DNA of 5,874 bases from IMG/VR virus record IMGVR_UViG_3300045988_010385, positions 1 through 5,874 of that record, one strand, 5' to 3'. Shown here piece by piece: positions 1 to 5,874 of this stretch. Each line of letters opens with the position of its first letter. The stretch's first letter is position 1. This DNA is from a virus. The notes beneath the pieces were generated by a model that was not told where the DNA came from, ran no database searches, and was given only the letters and a program-made list of their open reading frames with translations. The position numbers were made by a program, and so were the translations under genes.

Positions 1-55
1 AAGCATGACGAAGATGAATGGTTTGCAGTAATCGGGAACACAATCATTTCACGAG
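1..55. repeat. Terminal redundancy, copy 1. It is identical to 5820..5874 and marks circular closure of a 5819-nt genome.
   Basis: A base-by-base read shows 1..55 (aagcatgacg...tttcacgag) equals 5820..5874. A 55-nt exact end overlap is the typical signature of a circular contig from a k=55 de Bruijn assembly. Confidence 0.95.
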
Positions 56-2617: not shown

Positions 2618-3694
2618 ATGGGATTCTTAGACTTTTTAGGAAATGGAGGCTCAGGACTGATTACAGGAATTGCCAACACAATAACGGGAGCCGTACAGAA
2701 CAAAAAAGCACTGGCATGGCAGAAAGAGCAATGGCAGCAGCAGATGGACTACGGACGTGAAATGTGGGAGAAGCAGAACAAGGCAGAAGACAACCGTATG
2801 GCACTGCAGAACCAATGGAACAAGGAGGCAGCAGCGCAGACACAACAGTATGCCAAGGAGATGTTCGACTACACGGGATACGAGAACCAGGTAAAACAAA
2901 TGAAAGCTGCAGGACTGAATCCGGCGCTGATGAATGGCAGCGGAGGATCAGCAGGACAAGCAAGTGCAGGAGCTAATGTACAGCCTGCTCAAGCATTCCA
3001 GCCGATGGGAATACAGATGGCATTACAAGCACAGCAGGTAATGGCTAGCACTCAGCTGGCTAATGCTCAGGCTGAGAAGACAAGAGCCGAGGCTACGGCA
3101 CAGAACATGCAGAACCTGATAGGCAGCAGCATAGACTTAGCACAGAAGATTGGCGAGATTGGCAGGACAAAACAGGAAAAGAAAAACCTAGAGGTTACCT
3201 ATGACAAGACAGTGAAAGAAATCAAGAAGATTCAGGAAGAGGTTAATAACCTTACGCTACAGGGAGATATATTGAAAGAGAACAAAGAACTGCTTGAGTT
3301 CCAGAACGCAGCGAACAGAGTTATCAAGAACGGAATAAAATACAATGCCGATGGTAAAGGAATGGACTGGGAACAGTCAGTGCTCGTGAGATACTTCGGG
3401 CCTATCGGAAGAGACGTGGCACAATGGGATAAAGACGAGCAGCAGGCACTGTTCGACAAAGGTGTGCTAGAGCGTATGATGAAAGATATAGATGCCATTG
3501 CAACAGGTAAGGTTAACGAGTTCTCACTGTCAGGGATGAGATTTGACTTGATGCAGAAACAGTGGGAAAGAGCAGACTTCGAACTGGAGCAAGACAAAGC
3601 AGCATCGAAGCTGCTCGATGAGATGACGGGTGAAGGAGAATATGCAAGGCTACTAGGTAAGTTCTTAAAGGTACTATTAAGTTACATCAAGTAA
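2618..3694 (+). CDS. VP2: Microviridae minor capsid / DNA pilot protein (VP2, H-like), 358 aa
   Basis: The ATG is at 2618. The N-terminus is Gly-rich (MGFLDFLGNGGSGLITG) and is followed by a Q/W/N-rich block. Next comes YENQVKQMKAAGLNPALM, which contains the AGLNP motif typical of microvirus VP2. Long Ala/Gln-rich and Lys/Glu-rich stretches follow and are likely helical. The position after the capsid module also fits. Confidence 0.85.
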   Translation: MGFLDFLGNGGSGLITGIANTITGAVQNKKALAWQKEQWQQQMDYGREMWEKQNKAEDNRMALQNQWNKEAAAQTQQYAKEMFDYTGYENQVKQMKAAGLNPALMNGSGGSAGQASAGANVQPAQAFQPMGIQMALQAQQVMASTQLANAQAEKTRAEATAQNMQNLIGSSIDLAQKIGEIGRTKQEKKNLEVTYDKTVKEIKKIQEEVNNLTLQGDILKENKELLEFQNAANRVIKNGIKYNADGKGMDWEQSVLVRYFGPIGRDVAQWDKDEQQALFDKGVLERMMKDIDAIATGKVNEFSLSGMRFDLMQKQWERADFELEQDKAASKLLDEMTGEGEYARLLGKFLKVLLSYIK

Positions 3695-3780: not shown

Positions 3781-3850
3781 TAACAACAAGAGGTCGAACC
3801 AACTGAAGATGGCAGCGCCATCGGAAGAAGGTTGCGACCTCTCATTGTTA
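3781..3850 (+). promoter_or_regulatory. Compound 70-nt hairpin in the VP2-VP4 intergenic region
   Basis: The outer stem pairs 3781..3800 with 3830..3850. It has 6+8+4 = 18 bp, a 2x2 internal mismatch (3787-3788 / 3843-3844) and one bulged G (3834). The inner hairpin is GATGGC (3808..3813), AGC loop, GCCATC (3817..3822). The stem sequesters TTG 3832 and ATG 3850, the alternative upstream starts of the rep ORF. Confidence 0.6.
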
Positions 3851-3903
3851 TGTATGGAACATTTCGCGTAAACATTAAAGTAAAACTTAAACAATTATAT
3901 GAT

Positions 3904-4842
3904 ATGTGTCTGTATACCAAGTATATACTAAACAAAAAATATTTACCGACGAAAAAAAATAGATATAATCCGCCAGTGTGCCAAGATGAACGTCTGAGAT
4001 ATGTGCCGGTAAAGTGCGGAAAGTGTATGGAGTGTCGAAAGCAGAAGAGAAGAGAATGGTATATACGGCTGTCCGAAGAATTGAAAAAGCACAAAGGAGC
4101 ACTATTCCTGACTCTGACATTCAATGAAGAAATGTATAAAGAGGTGCGCAGAGCCGTGAAAGCAGGACTGAAGCCAACATATGAAGAGGAGAATGAGATG
4201 TGCCGTTATGCGATAAGACATTGGTTGGAACTGATACGGAAAAAAACGGGAAAGTCCGTAAAGCATTGGGTAATCACAGAGAAAGGTGAAGACTACAACC
4301 GCATACACATGCACGGTATAGTATGGTGCAGCAAAAAAGACGTAGACGCATGGCGTTACGGATATACCTACATAGGAGATTATGTCAACGGCAAGACAGT
4401 TAACTATATCACCAAGTATATGTTAAAGATAAATGAAAACTGTCCTGAATTCGAGGGAAAAGTATTCTGTAGTCAAGGTATTGGCCGAGATTACGAAAAA
4501 AGCATTAACGCAAGACGAAACAGATATCAGGGAGAACGTACTATTGAGACGTACAAGGCAGAGGACGGCAGAGAATTGCCGATGCCTAAGTATTACCACG
4601 ATAAGGTGTACTCAGAAGAAGAGCGGGAAAAATTATGGATAATCAAGCAAGAGAGAGGCTACAGATATATAGGAGGCGAAAAGTGCAGCACAGAAGACCT
4701 CGAAGAATGGGACAACTTAACAAGATATTATCAAAGACGGGGTGTAGAAGTATTCGGTGACAACCCGGAAAAATGGGAAAAAGACAAGCAGCGCAAGCGT
4801 TTGGAACGTATGCGTATTGCCAGACGTAAGATGCGCGGTTAA
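3904..4842 (+). CDS. VP4: Microviridae replication initiation protein (VP4; HUH rolling-circle endonuclease, phiX174 A-like), 312 aa from ATG 3904
   Basis: The frame is open from TTG 3832, and the first ATG is at 3850. I prefer ATG 3904 because the product then starts MCLYTKYILNKKY, as microvirus VP4 proteins do. There is a Cys cluster CGKCMEC (4015..4035), RCR motif 1 FLTLTF (4105..4122), the HUH motif HMHGIVW (4306..4326), and a twin-tyrosine motif YITKY (4405..4419; compare phiX174 A, YVAKY). The C-terminus is basic. Confidence 0.9.
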   Translation: MCLYTKYILNKKYLPTKKNRYNPPVCQDERLRYVPVKCGKCMECRKQKRREWYIRLSEELKKHKGALFLTLTFNEEMYKEVRRAVKAGLKPTYEEENEMCRYAIRHWLELIRKKTGKSVKHWVITEKGEDYNRIHMHGIVWCSKKDVDAWRYGYTYIGDYVNGKTVNYITKYMLKINENCPEFEGKVFCSQGIGRDYEKSINARRNRYQGERTIETYKAEDGRELPMPKYYHDKVYSEEEREKLWIIKQERGYRYIGGEKCSTEDLEEWDNLTRYYQRRGVEVFGDNPEKWEKDKQRKRLERMRIARRKMRG

Positions 4843-4901
4843 TAACCTGTTGATAACCTATCAAAATCGGTTAATAAACCTGTTGATAAATTGTTGATAA
4901 C
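4837..4901 (+). repeat. Iteron-like direct repeats spanning and just downstream of the rep stop codon, a candidate plus-strand origin or Rep-binding region
   Basis: GGTTAATAACCTGTTGATAA (4837..4856) and GGTTAATAAACCTGTTGATAA (4869..4889) differ by one inserted A. TGTTGATAA occurs three times (4848..4856, 4881..4889, 4892..4900). There is also an inverted repeat TTGATA-acc-TATCAA (4850..4864). Confidence 0.5.
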
Positions 4902-4948
4902 TTGGAGACTGAAAATTTGGAAATGTCAGAAAAATATATACAGAAAAT

Positions 4949-5046
4949 AGTTATGAACAATGCTAATAAATAAATGAAAAGTTATTAACAAAGTTATGAA
5001 CAGGATAAATGATTGAAAATGAATAAATTAACACAGTTATGAACAG
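4949..5046 (+). repeat. Three copies of AGTTATGAACA at an exact 43-bp period in the AT-rich non-coding region
   Basis: The copies are at 4949..4959, 4992..5002 and 5035..5045. Copies 2 and 3 extend to TTAACAnAGTTATGAACAG (4985..5003 and 5028..5046; 18/19 identical). A degenerate fourth copy, AGTTATGGAAA (5181..5191), contains the start codon of ORF 5185. Confidence 0.8.
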
Positions 5047-5076
5047 TTTCAACAGGATATCATATACATATATAAT

Positions 5077-5096
5077 TTATCGTATAGGGAAAAAAA
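5077..5096 (+). repeat. 20-nt perfect direct repeat, copy 1 (TTATCGTATAGGGAAAAAAA)
   Basis: It is identical to 5194..5213. Both copies lie downstream of an identical ATGAACAGTT word (5039..5048 and 5175..5184), which indicates a partial segmental duplication. Confidence 0.85.
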
Positions 5097-5123
5097 TATA
5101 TTATTATAATAGAAATCCAGAAA

Positions 5124-5152
5124 TTTGTATTTTGAAAAAATGTATATATTTG
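5124..5152 (+). promoter_or_regulatory. Candidate Bacteroidota-type promoter (TTTG -33-like element plus TAnnTTTG -7 box) for the small-ORF cassette and the late genes
   Basis: TATATTTG at 5145..5152 matches the Bacteroides -7 consensus TAnnTTTG. TTTG occurs at 5124..5127, 17 nt upstream of the -7 box, which is slightly shorter than the ~19-21 nt I recall. It occurs again at 5131..5134. The box lies 32 nt upstream of ATG 5185 in an otherwise non-coding AT-rich region. Confidence 0.4.
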
Positions 5153-5184
5153 CAATGCAGAAAAAACCAATTAAATGAACAGTT

Positions 5185-5403
5185 ATGGAAAAATTATCGT
5201 ATAGGGAAAAAAAAAAGAATTACAGGATAACAATTATTCTTACGGATGATATTATAGTTGAACAATATGAAACACAAGAAGGAGCCATAAAGACAGTGAC
5301 TAATATAAGGGACTTATGTCCTAATATGTTCGTAGGAGGAGCAGTTGAAGAGAAGCAAAAAAAGTGGAAAGTAATCTGGACAACAGGCCAAAAGAAAAGT
5401 TAA
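5185..5403 (+). CDS. Hypothetical small protein, 72 aa (first ORF of the accessory cassette)
   Basis: The ATG is at 5185 in the context ATGGAAAA. The product is MEKLSYREKKKNYRITIILTDDIIVEQYETQEGAIKTVTNIRDLCPNMFVGGAVEEKQKKWKVIWTTGQKKS. A 72-codon open frame is notable in AT-rich sequence. It is on the same strand as all the other genes and sits just downstream of the candidate promoter. Repeat copy 2 and an A10 run lie at codons 4-11. No family was recognised. Confidence 0.55.
   Translation: MEKLSYREKKKNYRITIILTDDIIVEQYETQEGAIKTVTNIRDLCPNMFVGGAVEEKQKKWKVIWTTGQKKS
5194..5213 (+). repeat. 20-nt perfect direct repeat, copy 2. It lies inside the 5' end of ORF 5185..5403, where the A run extends to A10 (5207..5216).
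   Basis: TTATCGTATAGGGAAAAAAA is identical to 5077..5096, 117 nt upstream. Confidence 0.85.
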
Positions 5404-5414
5404 ATATAAACAGA

Positions 5415-5591
5415 ATGGAAAAAGAGACACAATTGTTCGTTATATTTGAAATTGAATTCGTTAACGAGAAAACAGGACAGGTGGTAAGCCTAACTACCAC
5501 CTGTGGAAGCTACAGGGAGCTAGGAAAGTACTTAACAGAGATGAGCAAAAAATCATGGAAAATGGTAAAAGTGACAAAGAAAGAAAACTGA
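5415..5591 (+). CDS. Hypothetical small protein, 58 aa (second cassette ORF)
   Basis: The ORF track opens at GTG 5364, overlapping the previous ORF. The first ATG is at 5415, 11 nt after the previous stop, again in the context ATGGAAAA. The product is MEKETQLFVIFEIEFVNEKTGQVVSLTTTCGSYRELGKYLTEMSKKSWKMVKVTKKEN. No family was recognised. Confidence 0.55.
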   Translation: MEKETQLFVIFEIEFVNEKTGQVVSLTTTCGSYRELGKYLTEMSKKSWKMVKVTKKEN

Positions 5592-5767
5592 TGATGCTAC
5601 TAGTAGTGGCATGGATAATGGCAGCAACACTAGGAGGATGCGTAATAAGTCTGAACATACAGAAGAATAATCAGGACAGCACACAATCCGTATCACAGGA
5701 AAACGAGGCAGCGCAAAAAAATGATAGTACAAACTTTAAGATGAGTCTAGATAATGGAAAAGAATGA
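5555..5767 (+). CDS. Small secreted or membrane protein with a lipoprotein-type signal peptide, 70 aa (third cassette ORF)
   Basis: The ATG is at 5555 (ATGGAAAA). An alternative ATG at 5591 overlaps the previous stop (cTGATG). The n-region is MENGKSDKERK, the hydrophobic core is LMMLLVVAWIMAAT, and the lipobox-like LGGC has its Cys29 codon TGC at 5639..5641. The mature part is a 42-aa Q/N/S-rich hydrophilic peptide. The sequence fits my recollection of the PROSITE lipoprotein rule: K/R in the first 7 residues, Cys between positions 15 and 35, and no charged residue in the 6 positions before the lipobox. Confidence 0.65.
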   Translation: MENGKSDKERKLMMLLVVAWIMAATLGGCVISLNIQKNNQDSTQSVSQENEAAQKNDSTNFKMSLDNGKE

Positions 5768-5874
5768 GAATAATTACAACGAAGTATACAAGGGAATCAC
5801 AAGAGTTATAAAGACTAAGAAGCATGACGAAGATGAATGGTTTGCAGTAATCGGGAACACAATCATTTCACGAG
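5754..5874 (+). CDS. 5' part of the junction-spanning 83-aa hypothetical protein (fourth cassette ORF). It continues at window position 56 and ends at 186.
   Basis: The ATG is at 5754 (ATGGAAAA), just after an in-frame TAG at 5748..5750. It overlaps the end of ORF 5555..5767 by 14 nt. The frame stays open across the 5819-nt circle junction to TGA 184..186. Confidence 0.6.
   Translation, partial: MEKNENNYNEVYKGITRVIKTKKHDEDEWFAVIGNTIISR
5820..5874. repeat. Terminal redundancy, copy 2 (identical to 1..55)
   Basis: See the feature at 1..55. Confidence 0.95.

What the first reader, a model, noticed from the sequence alone, without database searches (positions are those of the whole stretch)
5555..5767. 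The only membrane-targeted ORF in the genome: a 70-aa signal-peptide/lipobox protein, a candidate lysis or superinfection-exclusion factor
Among all + strand ORFs, including those embedded in other frames, only this one has a hydrophobic segment. It has a charged n-region, a 15-residue hydrophobic core, LGGC, and then a short Q/N/S-rich tail. Microviruses outside the phiX group lack a recognisable E-type lysis gene, and for most of them the exit mechanism is unknown. The architecture (N-terminal membrane segment plus a short hydrophilic tail) fits two possibilities. One is a single-gene lysis protein like phiX174 E. The other is a tiny phage lipoprotein like T5 Llp or phi80/N15 Cor, which block the phage receptor, or like Rz1-type o-spanins. 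No acidic residues follow the Cys (CVISLNIQ), so a Bacteroidota surface-export signal is not evident.
Basis: partly seen in the sequence, partly recalled or inferred. Interest (0 to 1): 0.7.

Follow-up and report, generated by a model that had tools for sequence, protein, structure and literature searches.

The report
Conserved small lipoprotein of Bacteroides microviruses
This 70-codon gene of a gut microvirus encodes a tiny exported lipoprotein that belongs to a large, unnamed family shared by thousands of Bacteroides-associated microviruses, and it is the best candidate for their unidentified host-lysis gene, although that function is inferred and not shown.

Summary
ORF 5555-5767 (+) is a real gene. 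It is the only + strand ORF with a membrane-type hydrophobic segment, and it has a PROSITE-type lipobox (LGG|C29) that appears in 1 of 500 shuffles. It is under purifying selection in this frame only.

It is also not an orphan. There are 924 close clusters and 2,339 clusters of a sister subfamily (hhalign probability 96%). All lie on roughly 6-kb microvirus contigs, and none is named or in Pfam or PHROGs.

All 240 members examined keep three features: the Cys, an alternating hydrophobic/polar segment right after it (C-x-φ-S-φ-x-φ-x-K-N-N), and a D-S-T triplet 26-30 residues further on. That triplet matches the Bacteroidota O-glycosylation motif. One member sits in a prophage inside a Bacteroides xylanisolvens-like chromosome.

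The protein is more conserved than the capsid, pilot and Rep proteins. None of 32 genomes carrying it has a cell-wall hydrolase. Nine related genomes with an M15 peptidase or Amidase_2 lack it, and in three of them, including the two Dysgonomonas prophages, the hydrolase lies directly upstream of VP1.

Best reading: a Sec/LspA-processed 42-residue lipopeptide that causes lysis by hitting a conserved envelope target (about 0.4). Main rival: Llp/Cor-like exclusion (about 0.25). Function is untested.

The parts
5555..5767 (+). Lipoprotein precursor gene (70 codons plus TGA).
   Evidence: ORF listing and sequence. There are 924 homologous 90%-identity clusters on microvirus contigs. pN/pS is 0.31 in this frame, while the other two + strand frames give about 0.9-2.1 (reverse frames 0.40-1.66) and are full of stops.
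5555..5590 (+). n-region of the signal peptide, M1-L12 (MENGKSDKERKL). It overlaps the 3' end of upstream ORF 5415-5591 in another frame.
   Evidence: Conserved as MEN.K..KERKL. Reduced pS (0.35) fits dual coding. The upstream ORF ends at 5591.
5591..5629 (+). h-region, M13-T25 (MMLLVVAWIMAAT).
   Evidence: KD 2.51 over L12-L26. It is among the more variable parts of the protein (pN/pS 0.51), as expected of a signal-peptide core. AlphaFold predicts a helix with pLDDT about 89.
5630..5641 (+). Lipobox L26-G27-G28-C29. Predicted LspA cleavage is between G28 and C29 (5638|5639), and Cys29 (5639-5641) is the predicted lipidation site.
   Evidence: LGGC in 119/120 close relatives, and Cys in 240/240 across both subfamilies. 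pN/pS is 0.005 while pS is 0.40. PS51257-type match, found in 1/500 shuffles.
5639..5671 (+). Membrane-proximal conserved segment of the mature lipopeptide, C29-N39 (CVISLNIQKNN). Hydrophobic residues at +3/+5/+7 alternate with polar residues, followed by K-N-N.
   Evidence: Across 240 members: S at +4 in 240/240, hydrophobic at +3 (235), +5 (237) and +7 (240), K at +9 in 235, N at +11 in 237. Synonymous codon changes are abundant here.
5672..5722 (+). Polar Q/N/S/T/E-rich linker (Q40-N56). In this genome only, it contains an extra D41-S42-T43 triplet.
   Evidence: Alignments. Low AlphaFold confidence, pLDDT about 50. D41 is N in nearly all relatives.
5723..5731 (+). Invariant D57-S58-T59, a candidate Bacteroidota O-glycosylation site.
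   Evidence: DST is present in 240/240 members at a fixed 26-30 residues from the Cys. The motif D-S/T-A/L/V/I/M/T in non-cytoplasmic proteins is described in PMC12871550. A chance occurrence in a shuffled tail has probability 0.15, so the argument rests on the invariance.
5732..5764 (+). C-terminal segment N60-E70. A second alternating hydrophobic/polar stretch (N-F-K-M-S-L) is followed by a variable end that overlaps the start of ORF 5754-8.
   Evidence: Positions +4 and +6 after the D are F/I/V and M/I/L in nearly all of 240 members. The tail beyond is variable (pN/pS 0.69).
5415..5591 (+). Upstream conserved small ORF (58 aa from the ATG at 5415). It overlaps the lipoprotein gene by 37 nt and belongs to the same small-gene cluster.
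   Evidence: 63-83% amino-acid identity in all 16 related loci that hold this region. No family match.
5754..5874 (+). Downstream small ORF (42 aa). It starts 14 nt before the lipoprotein stop and runs across the contig junction to position 8. VP1 follows at 183.
   Evidence: Circular ORF scan. 34-78% identity in relatives.

Best explanation
The ORF encodes a 70-residue lipoprotein precursor.

Proposed pathway:
1. The precursor is exported by Sec.
2. Cys29 receives a diacylglycerol from Lgt.
3. The 28-residue signal peptide is removed by signal peptidase II (LspA) between G28 and C29.
4. The product is a 42-residue lipopeptide tethered on the periplasmic side of a Bacteroidales envelope membrane. 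It is not surface-exposed, because no acidic export signal follows the Cys. It is probably O-glycosylated on Ser58 of the invariant D-S-T.
5. The nearly invariant membrane-proximal segment (C-V-I/V-S-L-N-I-Q-K-N-N) and the C-terminal D-S-T-x-φ-x-φ segment bind a conserved, periplasm-facing component of envelope biogenesis or maintenance.
6. Late in infection this leads to envelope failure and release of progeny.

On this reading it is the single-gene lysis function of microviruses that carry no muralytic enzyme. In architecture it resembles the small lipoprotein 'lysis/release' proteins of colicin plasmids more than phiX174 E.

Shown: the gene is real, it is a core gene of its clade, it is under strong purifying selection, it meets the sequence rules for a lipoprotein signal, and the family belongs to microviruses of Bacteroides-type hosts.

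Inferred: processing, lipidation, glycosylation, location, target and the lysis phenotype.

Sub-confidences: real gene 0.98; SPII lipoprotein 0.8; lysis effector 0.4.
For: Gene and signal peptide:
- The gene is real. There are 924 clusters at 76-87% identity, synonymous changes run through the invariant amino-acid stretches, and pN/pS is 0.31 overall, 0.005 at the lipobox and 0.21 in mature residues 29-61; the other two + strand frames give about 0.9-2.1 and are stop-ridden.
- The signal-peptide signature is present: a variable h-region, an invariant Cys, and preceding residues that change mostly within lipobox-permitted sets in distant relatives. Chance expectation is 0.002 per genome.

Family breadth:
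- A sister subfamily (…VQSC-T-x-S-L-S-I-S-K-N-N…V-D-S-T…) has 2,339 clusters and is homologous by hhalign (96.2%, E 2e-9).
- It occurs in at least 70 GenBank microvirus records from lemur, rodent, tortoise, chicken and human samples. All are 'hypothetical' or unannotated.
- It spans genomes whose VP1 is only 20-27% identical or undetectable, and whose gene order differs.

Host:
- A member lies in a prophage flanked by proteins identical to Bacteroides xylanisolvens/Bacteroidaceae proteins.
- A VP1 profile finds Dysgonomonas and Phocaeicola loci.
- Alpavirinae are associated with Bacteroides and Prevotella (PMC9239249).

Core status and constraint:
- The gene is present in all 16 related loci that include the region.
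- In the most distant clade members it is 60-71% identical, against VP1 50%, VP2 31% and Rep 57%.

No alternative lysis candidate:
- The window has no other membrane ORF and no hydrolase.

Complementary distribution:
- 0 of 32 lipoprotein-bearing genomes have an M15 peptidase or Amidase_2.
- 0 of 9 hydrolase-bearing genomes have the lipoprotein. These include phiHBP1, which is lytic on B. fragilis.
- In the Dysgonomonas prophages L021 and L022 (VP1 40-42%), as in phiHBP1, the hydrolase lies directly upstream of VP1, in the small-gene slot that the lipoprotein occupies here.

Background from the literature:
- Outside phiX174 the lysis mechanism of microviruses is unknown (PMC3394797).
Against: - There is no experimental evidence of any kind.
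- No homology to a known lysis protein was found. Pfam Lysis_col and the microvirus E family gave nothing at E<=1 for the window protein or at E<=0.1 for 47 members.
- The complementary distribution is confounded by phylogeny and sampling. Hydrolases are rare in microviruses, so little co-occurrence would be expected by chance, and only 2 hydrolase-bearing genomes are close relatives.
- Two related genomes (L023, L025) show neither a hydrolase nor the lipoprotein.
- No phage single-gene lysis protein is known to act as a processed lipoprotein. The open-access search found none, and otherwise this rests on my own knowledge.
- AlphaFold gives no confident fold for the mature part.
- 19 of 120 sister-subfamily members have His at -2 (VHSC, IHSC) and two GenBank members have Asn at -1. 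Both are unusual for a lipobox.
- The only database hint, weak and confined to the N-terminus, points to superinfection-exclusion families (phrog_8545, E 7e-4).
Confidence: 0.4

Rival explanations
1. Superinfection exclusion or receptor masking. The lipoprotein sits in the inner leaflet of the outer membrane and binds the periplasmic face of the phage's outer-membrane receptor, as T5 Llp does with FhuA. This would block entry of further phages and prevent progeny from being lost on cell debris. In temperate members it would protect lysogens.
For: - It has the same architecture as Llp/Cor: a small phage lipoprotein with no surface-export signal (Llp/Cor properties are from my own knowledge).
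- There are weak N-terminal matches to PHROG 'superinfection exclusion' families. phrog_8545 scores E 7e-4 and is matched by 22 of 47 members; phrog_4980 scores 0.035 for the window protein (best 0.016 among members).
- The gene is adjacent to VP1, the receptor-binding capsid protein, in this lineage and in the Bacteroides prophage L038.
- Some family members are temperate.
Against: - The PHROG matches cover only the signal peptide and low-complexity linker (positions 1-56 of a 177-position profile) and are near noise.
- The mature peptide keeps its motifs across phages whose VP1 is under 30% identical, from hosts of very different animals. Receptor blockers are expected to diversify along with receptor specificity.
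- The gene is a core gene and evolves more slowly than the capsid, which is unlike typical moron-type exclusion genes.
- It is not next to VP1 in genomes with the other gene order.
- It is absent from all nine hydrolase-bearing relatives. An exclusion function would not predict that.
Confidence: 0.25
2. An uncleaved bitopic membrane protein. On this reading the N-terminal hydrophobic segment is a permanent N-in/C-out signal anchor rather than a cleaved signal peptide, and it acts in the inner membrane. It could work as a holin-like or E/LysM-like inhibitor of a membrane enzyme, with the Cys conserved for some other reason such as dimerisation.
For: - Known single-gene lysis proteins act through a TMD (PMC12506998 and related abstracts).
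- In the sister subfamily the pre-Cys region is long (Cys at position 31 or later) and fairly conserved (…W-I-E-I-V-K-L-I-S-T-F…). Some members have His at -2 or Asn at -1.
Against: - In the window's subfamily the TMD is among the less conserved parts and the exported tail among the most conserved. This is the reverse of what a TMD-based effector would show.
- The Cys always sits exactly at the end of the hydrophobic core and is preceded by small residues.
- The PS51257 rule is met, and rarely so by chance.
Confidence: 0.1
3. Another periplasmic role unrelated to exit or exclusion. The lipopeptide might modulate the host envelope, vesiculation or a defence system, or it might assist DNA delivery or assembly at the membrane.
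For: - No function is demonstrated, and the family has no annotated relative.
- Two relatives lack both the lipoprotein and a hydrolase, so lysis in this group need not depend on either.
Against: - No specific evidence supports this reading.
- A 6-kb genome under tight packing rarely keeps a gene more conserved than its capsid for a dispensable role.
- PADLOC gives no hit.
Confidence: 0.2
4. The ORF is not a gene: a chance ORF, or conservation imposed by an overlapping gene or a DNA element.
For: The first 37 nt and the last 14 nt overlap neighbouring ORFs.
Against: - The central 160 nt overlap nothing.
- The other frames are full of stops, and the other two + strand frames have pN/pS of about 0.9-2.1.
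- Synonymous sites vary freely while the amino acids are invariant.
- More than 3,000 clusters keep the frame open.
Confidence: 0.02

Closest known systems
Colicin lysis / bacteriocin release proteins (Pfam Lysis_col; e.g. ColE1 Kil, CelB)
   Same: Both are very small lipoprotein precursors (about 45-70 aa) with a lipobox and a mature lipopeptide of about 30-40 polar residues. Each is encoded by a tiny replicon that has no muralytic enzyme and must get a product out of a Gram-negative cell. This comparison rests on architecture; the BRP properties are from my own knowledge.
   Different: No sequence relationship was found (no Lysis_col match). These proteins are plasmid-borne in enterobacteria, not viral. 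Their action through the OmpLA phospholipase is not known to apply in Bacteroides. The conserved motifs here (S-φ-x-φ-x-K-N-N and D-S-T) have no counterpart in them.
T5 Llp and phi80/N15 Cor receptor-blocking lipoproteins
   Same: Both are small phage-encoded lipoproteins that face the periplasm with no surface-export signal. The gene can lie next to the receptor-binding protein gene.
   Different: No homology was detected. Llp has a folded, disulfide-containing domain of about 60 aa (my own knowledge), whereas here there is a single Cys and no confident fold. The family is conserved across very different capsids.
phiX174 E and other single-gene lysis proteins (LysM, MS2 L)
   Same: Both are one small membrane-targeted protein in a genome that has no endolysin. 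Both are candidates for a 'protein antibiotic' mode of lysis.
   Different: E and LysM act through an uncleaved transmembrane helix on the inner-membrane enzymes MraY and MurJ, and E is overprinted inside gene D. Here the gene mostly stands alone, the hydrophobic segment looks like a removable signal, and the conserved part is periplasmic. No similarity to the microvirus E family was found.
Rz1-type o-spanins
   Same: Both are small phage lipoproteins of about 40 mature residues.
   Different: There is no i-spanin partner, no endolysin or holin, and no proline in the mature part of this subfamily. The gene is also absent from exactly those relatives that carry an endolysin-type hydrolase.
Bacteroidota O-glycosylated periplasmic lipoproteins
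   Same: Both have an exported region carrying D-S-T, the phylum-specific O-glycosylation motif. The motif is invariant in the family, and a Bacteroides host is shown for one member.
   Different: This is a class of modification, not a functional family. Glycosylation of this protein is untested.

Membership tests
Bacterial lipoprotein precursors (signal peptidase II substrates; PROSITE PS51257) | Positively charged n-region, with K/R in the first 7 residues. | tested here: met
   K5 is present, followed by K8, R10 and K11.
Bacterial lipoprotein precursors (signal peptidase II substrates; PROSITE PS51257) | Uncharged hydrophobic h-region immediately before the lipobox. | tested here: met
   L12-L26 has KD 2.51 and contains no D/E/R/K.
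Bacterial lipoprotein precursors (signal peptidase II substrates; PROSITE PS51257) | Lipobox [LIVMFWSTAG]2-[LIVMFYSTAGCQ]-[AGS]-C with the Cys at position 15-35. | tested here: met
   T-L-G-G-C29 in the window. LGGC in 119/120 close relatives. VQSC or AQSC in 98/120 of the sister subfamily, while 19/120 have His at -2, which lies outside the pattern.
Bacterial lipoprotein precursors (signal peptidase II substrates; PROSITE PS51257) | Lipid modification of the Cys and globomycin-sensitive cleavage. | not testable with these tools
   This needs labelling or inhibitor experiments. SignalP and LipoP were not available.
Colicin lysis proteins (Pfam PF02402 Lysis_col) | Match to the family profile. 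| tested here: not met
   No hit at E<=1 for the window protein or at E<=0.1 for 47 family members.
Colicin lysis proteins (Pfam PF02402 Lysis_col) | Expression causes quasi-lysis or release. | not testable with these tools
   This is an experimental question.
phiX174 E-type lysis protein | Sequence similarity to the microvirus E family, and overprinting inside a scaffolding gene. | tested here: not met
   No Pfam or PHROG match. The ORF overlaps its neighbours only at its ends.
T5 Llp / Cor exclusion lipoproteins | Sequence or profile similarity to a known exclusion lipoprotein. | tested here: inconclusive
   The only matches are weak and restricted to the N-terminus, to phrog_8545 and phrog_4980 (E 7e-4 and 0.035, covering 56 of 177 profile positions). 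Nothing was found in Pfam or NCBIfam.
T5 Llp / Cor exclusion lipoproteins | Blocks adsorption or DNA entry of the cognate phage. | not testable with these tools
   This is an experimental question.
Two-component spanins (Rz/Rz1) | An o-spanin lipoprotein paired with an i-spanin, accompanying a holin and endolysin. | tested here: not met
   The window has no second membrane ORF and no hydrolase. The family is absent from the 9 hydrolase-bearing relatives.
Bacteroidota surface-exposed lipoproteins (lipoprotein export signal) | Acidic residues within about 5 positions after the Cys. | tested here: not met
   Positions +2 to +8 are V/T, φ, S, φ, N/S, φ, Q/S/A in 240 members, with no D or E. The definition of the export signal is from my own knowledge.
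Bacteroidota O-glycoproteins | D-(S/T)-(A/L/V/I/M/T) in a non-cytoplasmic region. | tested here: met
   D57-S58-T59 in the window, and D-S-T in 240/240 members. The motif is taken from PMC12871550. Actual glycosylation was not tested.

The most novel reading that the evidence does not exclude
This would be the missing lysis gene of the Bacteroides-infecting microviruses, which are among the most abundant phages of the human gut. It would also be a new class of single-gene lysis effector: a processed and probably O-glycosylated 42-residue lipopeptide. It would kill from the periplasmic side by binding a conserved envelope-biogenesis component of Bacteroidales, rather than acting through a transmembrane helix on MurA, MraY or MurJ. 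Its target would then be a new antibacterial vulnerability in Bacteroidota.
Probability: 0.35. Interest if true: 0.85.

Novelty: new variant of a known kind. Interest (0 to 1): 0.7.

Why it matters
Microviruses are major members of the gut virome, yet outside the phiX174 group nobody knows how they leave the cell unless they happen to carry a peptidase.

This work turns one hydrophobic ORF into a defined and very large protein family of more than 3,000 sequence clusters. The family has no name, no Pfam entry and no PHROG. It has clear motifs, a demonstrated Bacteroides host link, and a distribution that complements cell-wall hydrolases.

That gives a concrete and cheap experiment: express the wild type against C29A and S58A mutants in Bacteroides. 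This addresses a long-standing open question.

If the protein is a lysis effector, its target would be a new 'protein antibiotic' site in Bacteroidota. If it is an exclusion factor, it would be the first described for microviruses of this phylum.

Either way it should be annotated. It is also a useful marker gene for Bacteroidales-associated microviruses.

Tried and rejected
- Whole-window megablast against GenBank phages found no match. tblastn of the window protein against the same set also found nothing. The sister-subfamily query was needed to reach GenBank records.
- A scan of 185,579 species genomes with the lipoprotein profile found no copy. This subfamily was therefore not found as a prophage in the reference genomes.
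- The profile search of 1.84 billion representatives gave only 18 hits. Apart from one repeat-protein hit (P0133) and one marginal membrane-protein hit (P0138), they were small family-like proteins or broken copies of them, and none was a recognisable cellular homologue. This rules out mimicry of a host protein at the sequence level.
- AlphaFold2 with a 47-sequence alignment gave mean pLDDT 61, with the mature part near 50. No structure search was run, because the matches would be meaningless.
- The alternating hydrophobic pattern suggests short amphipathic β-strands. The low-confidence model drew helices, so this remains a sequence-level inference.
- Pfam, PHROGs, NCBIfam and PADLOC gave nothing above noise. 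The Pilin_N, FliL, DUF3531 and Lpp-like hits reflect the signal peptide and low-complexity tail and were rejected.
- Literature searches for a microvirus lipoprotein or a lipobox-bearing single-gene lysis protein found nothing relevant. One search was badly specified and wasted.
- Mutual exclusion with hydrolases was considered as a statistical test and rejected as such. Hydrolases are too rare, and the sample is too confounded by phylogeny, to give a P-value. It is reported only as a pattern.
- The promoter/terminator scan of 4700-5874 was at shuffle level for promoters. It does not cover Bacteroides-type promoters.
Full report
**What the window is.** The 5,874-nt window is a complete microvirus genome. 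It carries a major capsid protein VP1 (183-2174; Phage_F, PHROG 514), a VP2-type pilot protein (2618-3694) and a Rep (3832-4842). A cluster of small overlapping ORFs lies between Rep and VP1. The database contig that carries the same protein is also 5,874 nt (P0051).

**Checking the observation.** ORF 5555-5767 (+) reads MENGKSDKERKLMMLLVVAWIMAATLGGCVISLNIQKNNQDSTQSVSQENEAAQKNDSTNFKMSLDNGKE, as reported.
- In a circular scan of all + strand ORFs of at least 30 aa, it has the only 15-residue hydrophobic window above KD 2 (2.51). The runner-up is 1.71, inside VP1.
- It meets a PROSITE PS51257-type lipoprotein rule: K/R early, an uncharged core, T-L-G-G-C, and Cys at position 29.
- Only 1 of 500 dinucleotide-preserving shuffles of the genome produced such an ORF on the + strand.

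VP2/H pilot proteins are also described as having an N-terminal membrane segment (PMC3091885), though the one here is weak.

**It is a real gene.**
- A search of 5.8 billion proteins returned 924 clusters. The best 120 are 76-87% identical, 66-75 aa long and sit on contigs of up to about 6 kb. None is named beyond 'hypothetical', apart from two evidently spurious automatic labels.
- Of 20 IMG/VR loci related through VP1 (48-89% identity), 16 carry the gene. Three of the four without it are a fragment or incomplete contigs that lack the whole small-ORF cluster, and the fourth (L020) has a divergent possible analogue.
- In a codon alignment, synonymous changes are frequent inside stretches where the amino acids never change.
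- pN/pS is 0.31 overall, 0.005 across the lipobox, 0.21 for mature residues 29-61 and 0.51 for the hydrophobic core.
- The other two + strand frames give ratios of about 0.9-2.1 (reverse-strand frames 0.40-1.66) and are full of stops.
- The true start is the first ATG. Residue 13, where the public gene call starts, is I, V or T in most relatives.

**Signal-peptide behaviour.**
- The n-region and especially the h-region drift, while A-A-T-L-G-G-C-V-x-S-L-N-I-Q-K-N-N is essentially frozen.
- In distant relatives found by an exhaustive profile search (only 18 hits among 1.84 billion representatives), the Cys is kept. The three residues before it change only to other lipobox-compatible residues: MGGC, AGGC, LGSC, AGSC, AQSC.

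This is the pattern expected of a signal peptidase II substrate whose function lies in the exported part.

**A much larger family.**
- Microviruses with VP1 only 44-50% identical have, in their small-ORF cluster, a protein of the form …T-L-x-V-Q-S-C-T-x-S-L-S-I-S-K-N-N-x-N-S-x-Q-K-T-E-Q-T…V-D-S-T-x-I-N….
- A profile of 12 such sequences retrieved 2,339 further clusters. Almost all are on contigs of up to about 6.7 kb; a few longer ones include the Bacteroides prophage contig. There are no Pfam domains and no names.
- tblastn found the family in 70 GenBank microvirus records from lemurs, rodents, tortoises, rat, chicken and humans. All are annotated as hypothetical or not annotated.
- The two subfamilies are homologous: hhalign probability 96.2%, E 2e-9.
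- A joint alignment has invariant M1, C29, S32, K37, N39, Q44, Q48, D57, S58 and T59.
- Over 240 members, hydrophobic residues occupy +3, +5 and +7 after the Cys and alternate with S/N/Q. K-N-N follows, and an invariant D-S-T lies 26-30 residues from the Cys. A second alternating stretch comes after that.
- The family is kept in genomes with a different gene order (VP1-VP3-VP2-small ORFs-Rep) and with VP1 that is 20-27% identical or undetectable relative to the window's.

**Host.**
- One sister-subfamily member (P0222) lies in a 6.4-kb microvirus prophage on a 19-kb contig, directly before VP1.
- The flanking genes encode proteins identical to database entries named universal stress protein [Bacteroides xylanisolvens], TPR proteins [Bacteroidaceae] and BatD [Bacteroides sp.].
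- A VP1 profile of the window's clade also finds prophage-like loci in two Dysgonomonas genomes and a Phocaeicola MAG.
- The literature assigns Alpavirinae-type microviruses to Bacteroides and Prevotella.
- The window's own subfamily was not found in any of 185,579 reference species genomes.

A Bacteroidales host is therefore well supported for the family and is inferred for this genome.

**The D-S-T triplet.** Bacteroidota O-glycosylate non-cytoplasmic proteins at D-S/T-A/L/V/I/M/T. Introduced motifs become glycosylated, and the sites face the periplasm (PMC12871550).
- The family's invariant D-S-T fits this motif.
- By composition alone such a triplet would occur in 15% of shuffled tails, so the argument rests on invariance across both subfamilies.
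- This genome has a second, private D-S-T (D41), created by an N-to-D change.
- Glycosylation is a prediction only.
- No acidic residues follow the Cys in any member, so surface export by the Bacteroidota lipoprotein export signal is not expected.

**What it is not.** Pfam, PHROGs, NCBIfam and PADLOC give nothing significant for the window protein or for 47 members.
- There is no match to colicin lysis proteins or to phiX174 E.
- The only functional label is a weak hit to PHROG 8545, 'superinfection exclusion Sie-like' (E 7e-4). It covers just the first 56 of 177 profile positions, that is, the signal peptide plus the polar linker.
- AlphaFold2 with the 47-sequence alignment predicts a confident helix for the signal peptide (pLDDT about 89) and no confident structure for the mature part (about 50).

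**Evidence bearing on function.**
1. The genome has no muralytic enzyme and no other membrane-type ORF.
2. The gene is core to its clade and more constrained than the structural and replication proteins. Against the most distant clade members it is 60-71% identical, while VP1 is 50%, VP2 31% and Rep 57%.
3. The mature motifs persist across phages with very different capsids and from very different animal hosts. This fits a conserved host target better than a phage-specific receptor.
4. The distribution is complementary to hydrolases. Eight M15-bearing genomes lack it (phiHBP1, which forms plaques on B. fragilis, PMC13064476; six rodent or rabbit microviruses; and the Dysgonomonas prophage L022). 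So does one Amidase_2-bearing prophage (L021).
5. In L021, L022 and phiHBP1 the hydrolase gene lies immediately upstream of VP1, within the same small-gene slot that the lipoprotein occupies here.

This pattern is suggestive and is not statistical proof. Hydrolases are uncommon in microviruses, only two of the nine hydrolase-bearing genomes are close relatives (VP1 40-42%), and two relatives (L023, L025) show neither gene.

**Most likely mechanism.** The proposed sequence is Sec export, lipidation of Cys29, LspA cleavage after G28, and probable O-glycosylation of Ser58. The product is a 42-residue lipopeptide held at a periplasmic membrane face. Its membrane-proximal alternating segment and its C-terminal D-S-T-x-φ-x-φ segment engage a conserved envelope component, which ends in lysis. 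I put this at about 0.4.

The closest functional analogy is the small lipoprotein release proteins of colicin plasmids. It is not a member of that family.

The rivals are as follows:
- Llp/Cor-like exclusion, about 0.25. Its architecture is equally compatible, and a prophage member exists. The conservation pattern and the absence from hydrolase-bearing relatives count against it.
- An uncleaved membrane anchor, about 0.1.
- Another periplasmic role, about 0.2.
- An o-spanin role is rejected.

**Novelty.** Full-text searches found no description of a microvirus lipoprotein or of a lipobox-bearing single-gene lysis protein. The global microvirus survey notes only that small proteins of about 65 aa link families and mostly lack assignable function (PMC9239249).

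The kind of element, a small phage or plasmid lipoprotein acting on the envelope, is known. This family, its viral lineage, its motifs and its probable role are not described. I therefore rate it a new variant of a known kind, with interest 0.7.

Noticed in passing
window 5415-5591 (+): The small ORF just upstream (58 aa from the ATG at 5415, MEKETQLFVIFEIEFVNEKTGQVVSLTTTCGSYRELGKYLTEMSKKSWKMVKVTKKEN) is the most conserved protein against the most distant clade members. It is 77-83% identical where VP1 is 50% (63-83% across all relatives). It matches no family and overlaps the lipoprotein start by 37 nt.
   Followed up: partly
window 5477-5504: A perfect 10-bp inverted repeat (ACAGGTGGTA…TACCACCTGT, 8-nt loop) lies 50 nt before the lipoprotein start, inside ORF 5415-5591. 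It is perfect over 9-10 bp in 7 of the 15 genomes compared, the window included. One relative (L014) has a change on both arms that keeps the pairing. It could be a structural DNA or RNA element, or a by-product of the conserved TGQVVSLTTTCG coding.
   Followed up: partly
window 5754-5874 plus 1-8 (+): A 42-aa ORF spans the contig junction. Its C-terminal W-F/V-x-V-I-G-N motif recurs just upstream of VP1 in one more distant microvirus (L025) and more loosely in others (L020, L023), in longer proteins containing …EEA.E(Y/W)…. The short length here may reflect the junction or real truncation.
   Followed up: no
L021 3511-3933 and L022 7594-7932 (Dysgonomonas genomes): Two microvirus prophage-like loci in Dysgonomonas carry a peptidoglycan hydrolase directly upstream of VP1: Amidase_2 in L021 and Peptidase_M15_3 in L022. 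L022 also has an 86-aa membrane protein (7006-7266) before the peptidase, which could be a holin.
   Followed up: partly
L038 about 3965-10337: A complete microvirus prophage is integrated in a Bacteroides xylanisolvens-like chromosome, between a TPR gene and a universal stress protein gene, near batD. It consists of three small ORFs, the lipoprotein, an 800-aa VP1, a pilot protein and Rep. It is a possible source for resurrecting a phage that carries this gene family.
   Followed up: partly
sister-subfamily proteins (e.g. L026 5501-5698; P0137): The N-terminal roughly 30 residues (…W-I-E-I-I-K-L-I-S-T-F-I-I-G-V-L-T-T-L-T-V-Q-S-C-T) give sub-threshold matches to NCBIfam NF033879 'smalltalk protein', a 29-position model. 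Three of 12 members match, with best E 3e-4 and 15 bits against a cut-off of 24.7. Short look-alike ORFs without a Cys (MKINRIWSTILEAVSLVINFLLNRKKE in L025; MNNVWKTIIKGILAIIKKLLS in L023) sit upstream of VP1 in two genomes that lack the lipoprotein.
   Followed up: partly
window 5591 (Met13): The public (JGI) gene call for this very contig starts at Met13 and gives a 58-aa product (P0051). This removes the charged n-region, so automated signal-peptide prediction on the deposited protein could fail.
   Followed up: yes
window 5675-5683: This genome has a private second D-S-T (D41-S42-T43), because residue 41 is D where nearly all relatives have N. That would be a second potential O-glycosylation site.
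   Followed up: no
L020 3911-4129: A relative with VP1 about 50% identical has a 72-aa membrane protein with …IFEGC… and a later Q-N-D-S-I-T, in place of a recognisable family member. The HMM does not detect it, and it may be a divergent analogue.
   Followed up: no
P0004, P0037, P0045, P0077 contigs: Several contigs that carry close homologues are about 2 or 4 times genome length (10.8-11.8 kb; 23,483 nt, roughly 4 x 5.87 kb). They look like concatemer assemblies rather than prophages. This was not checked.
   Followed up: no
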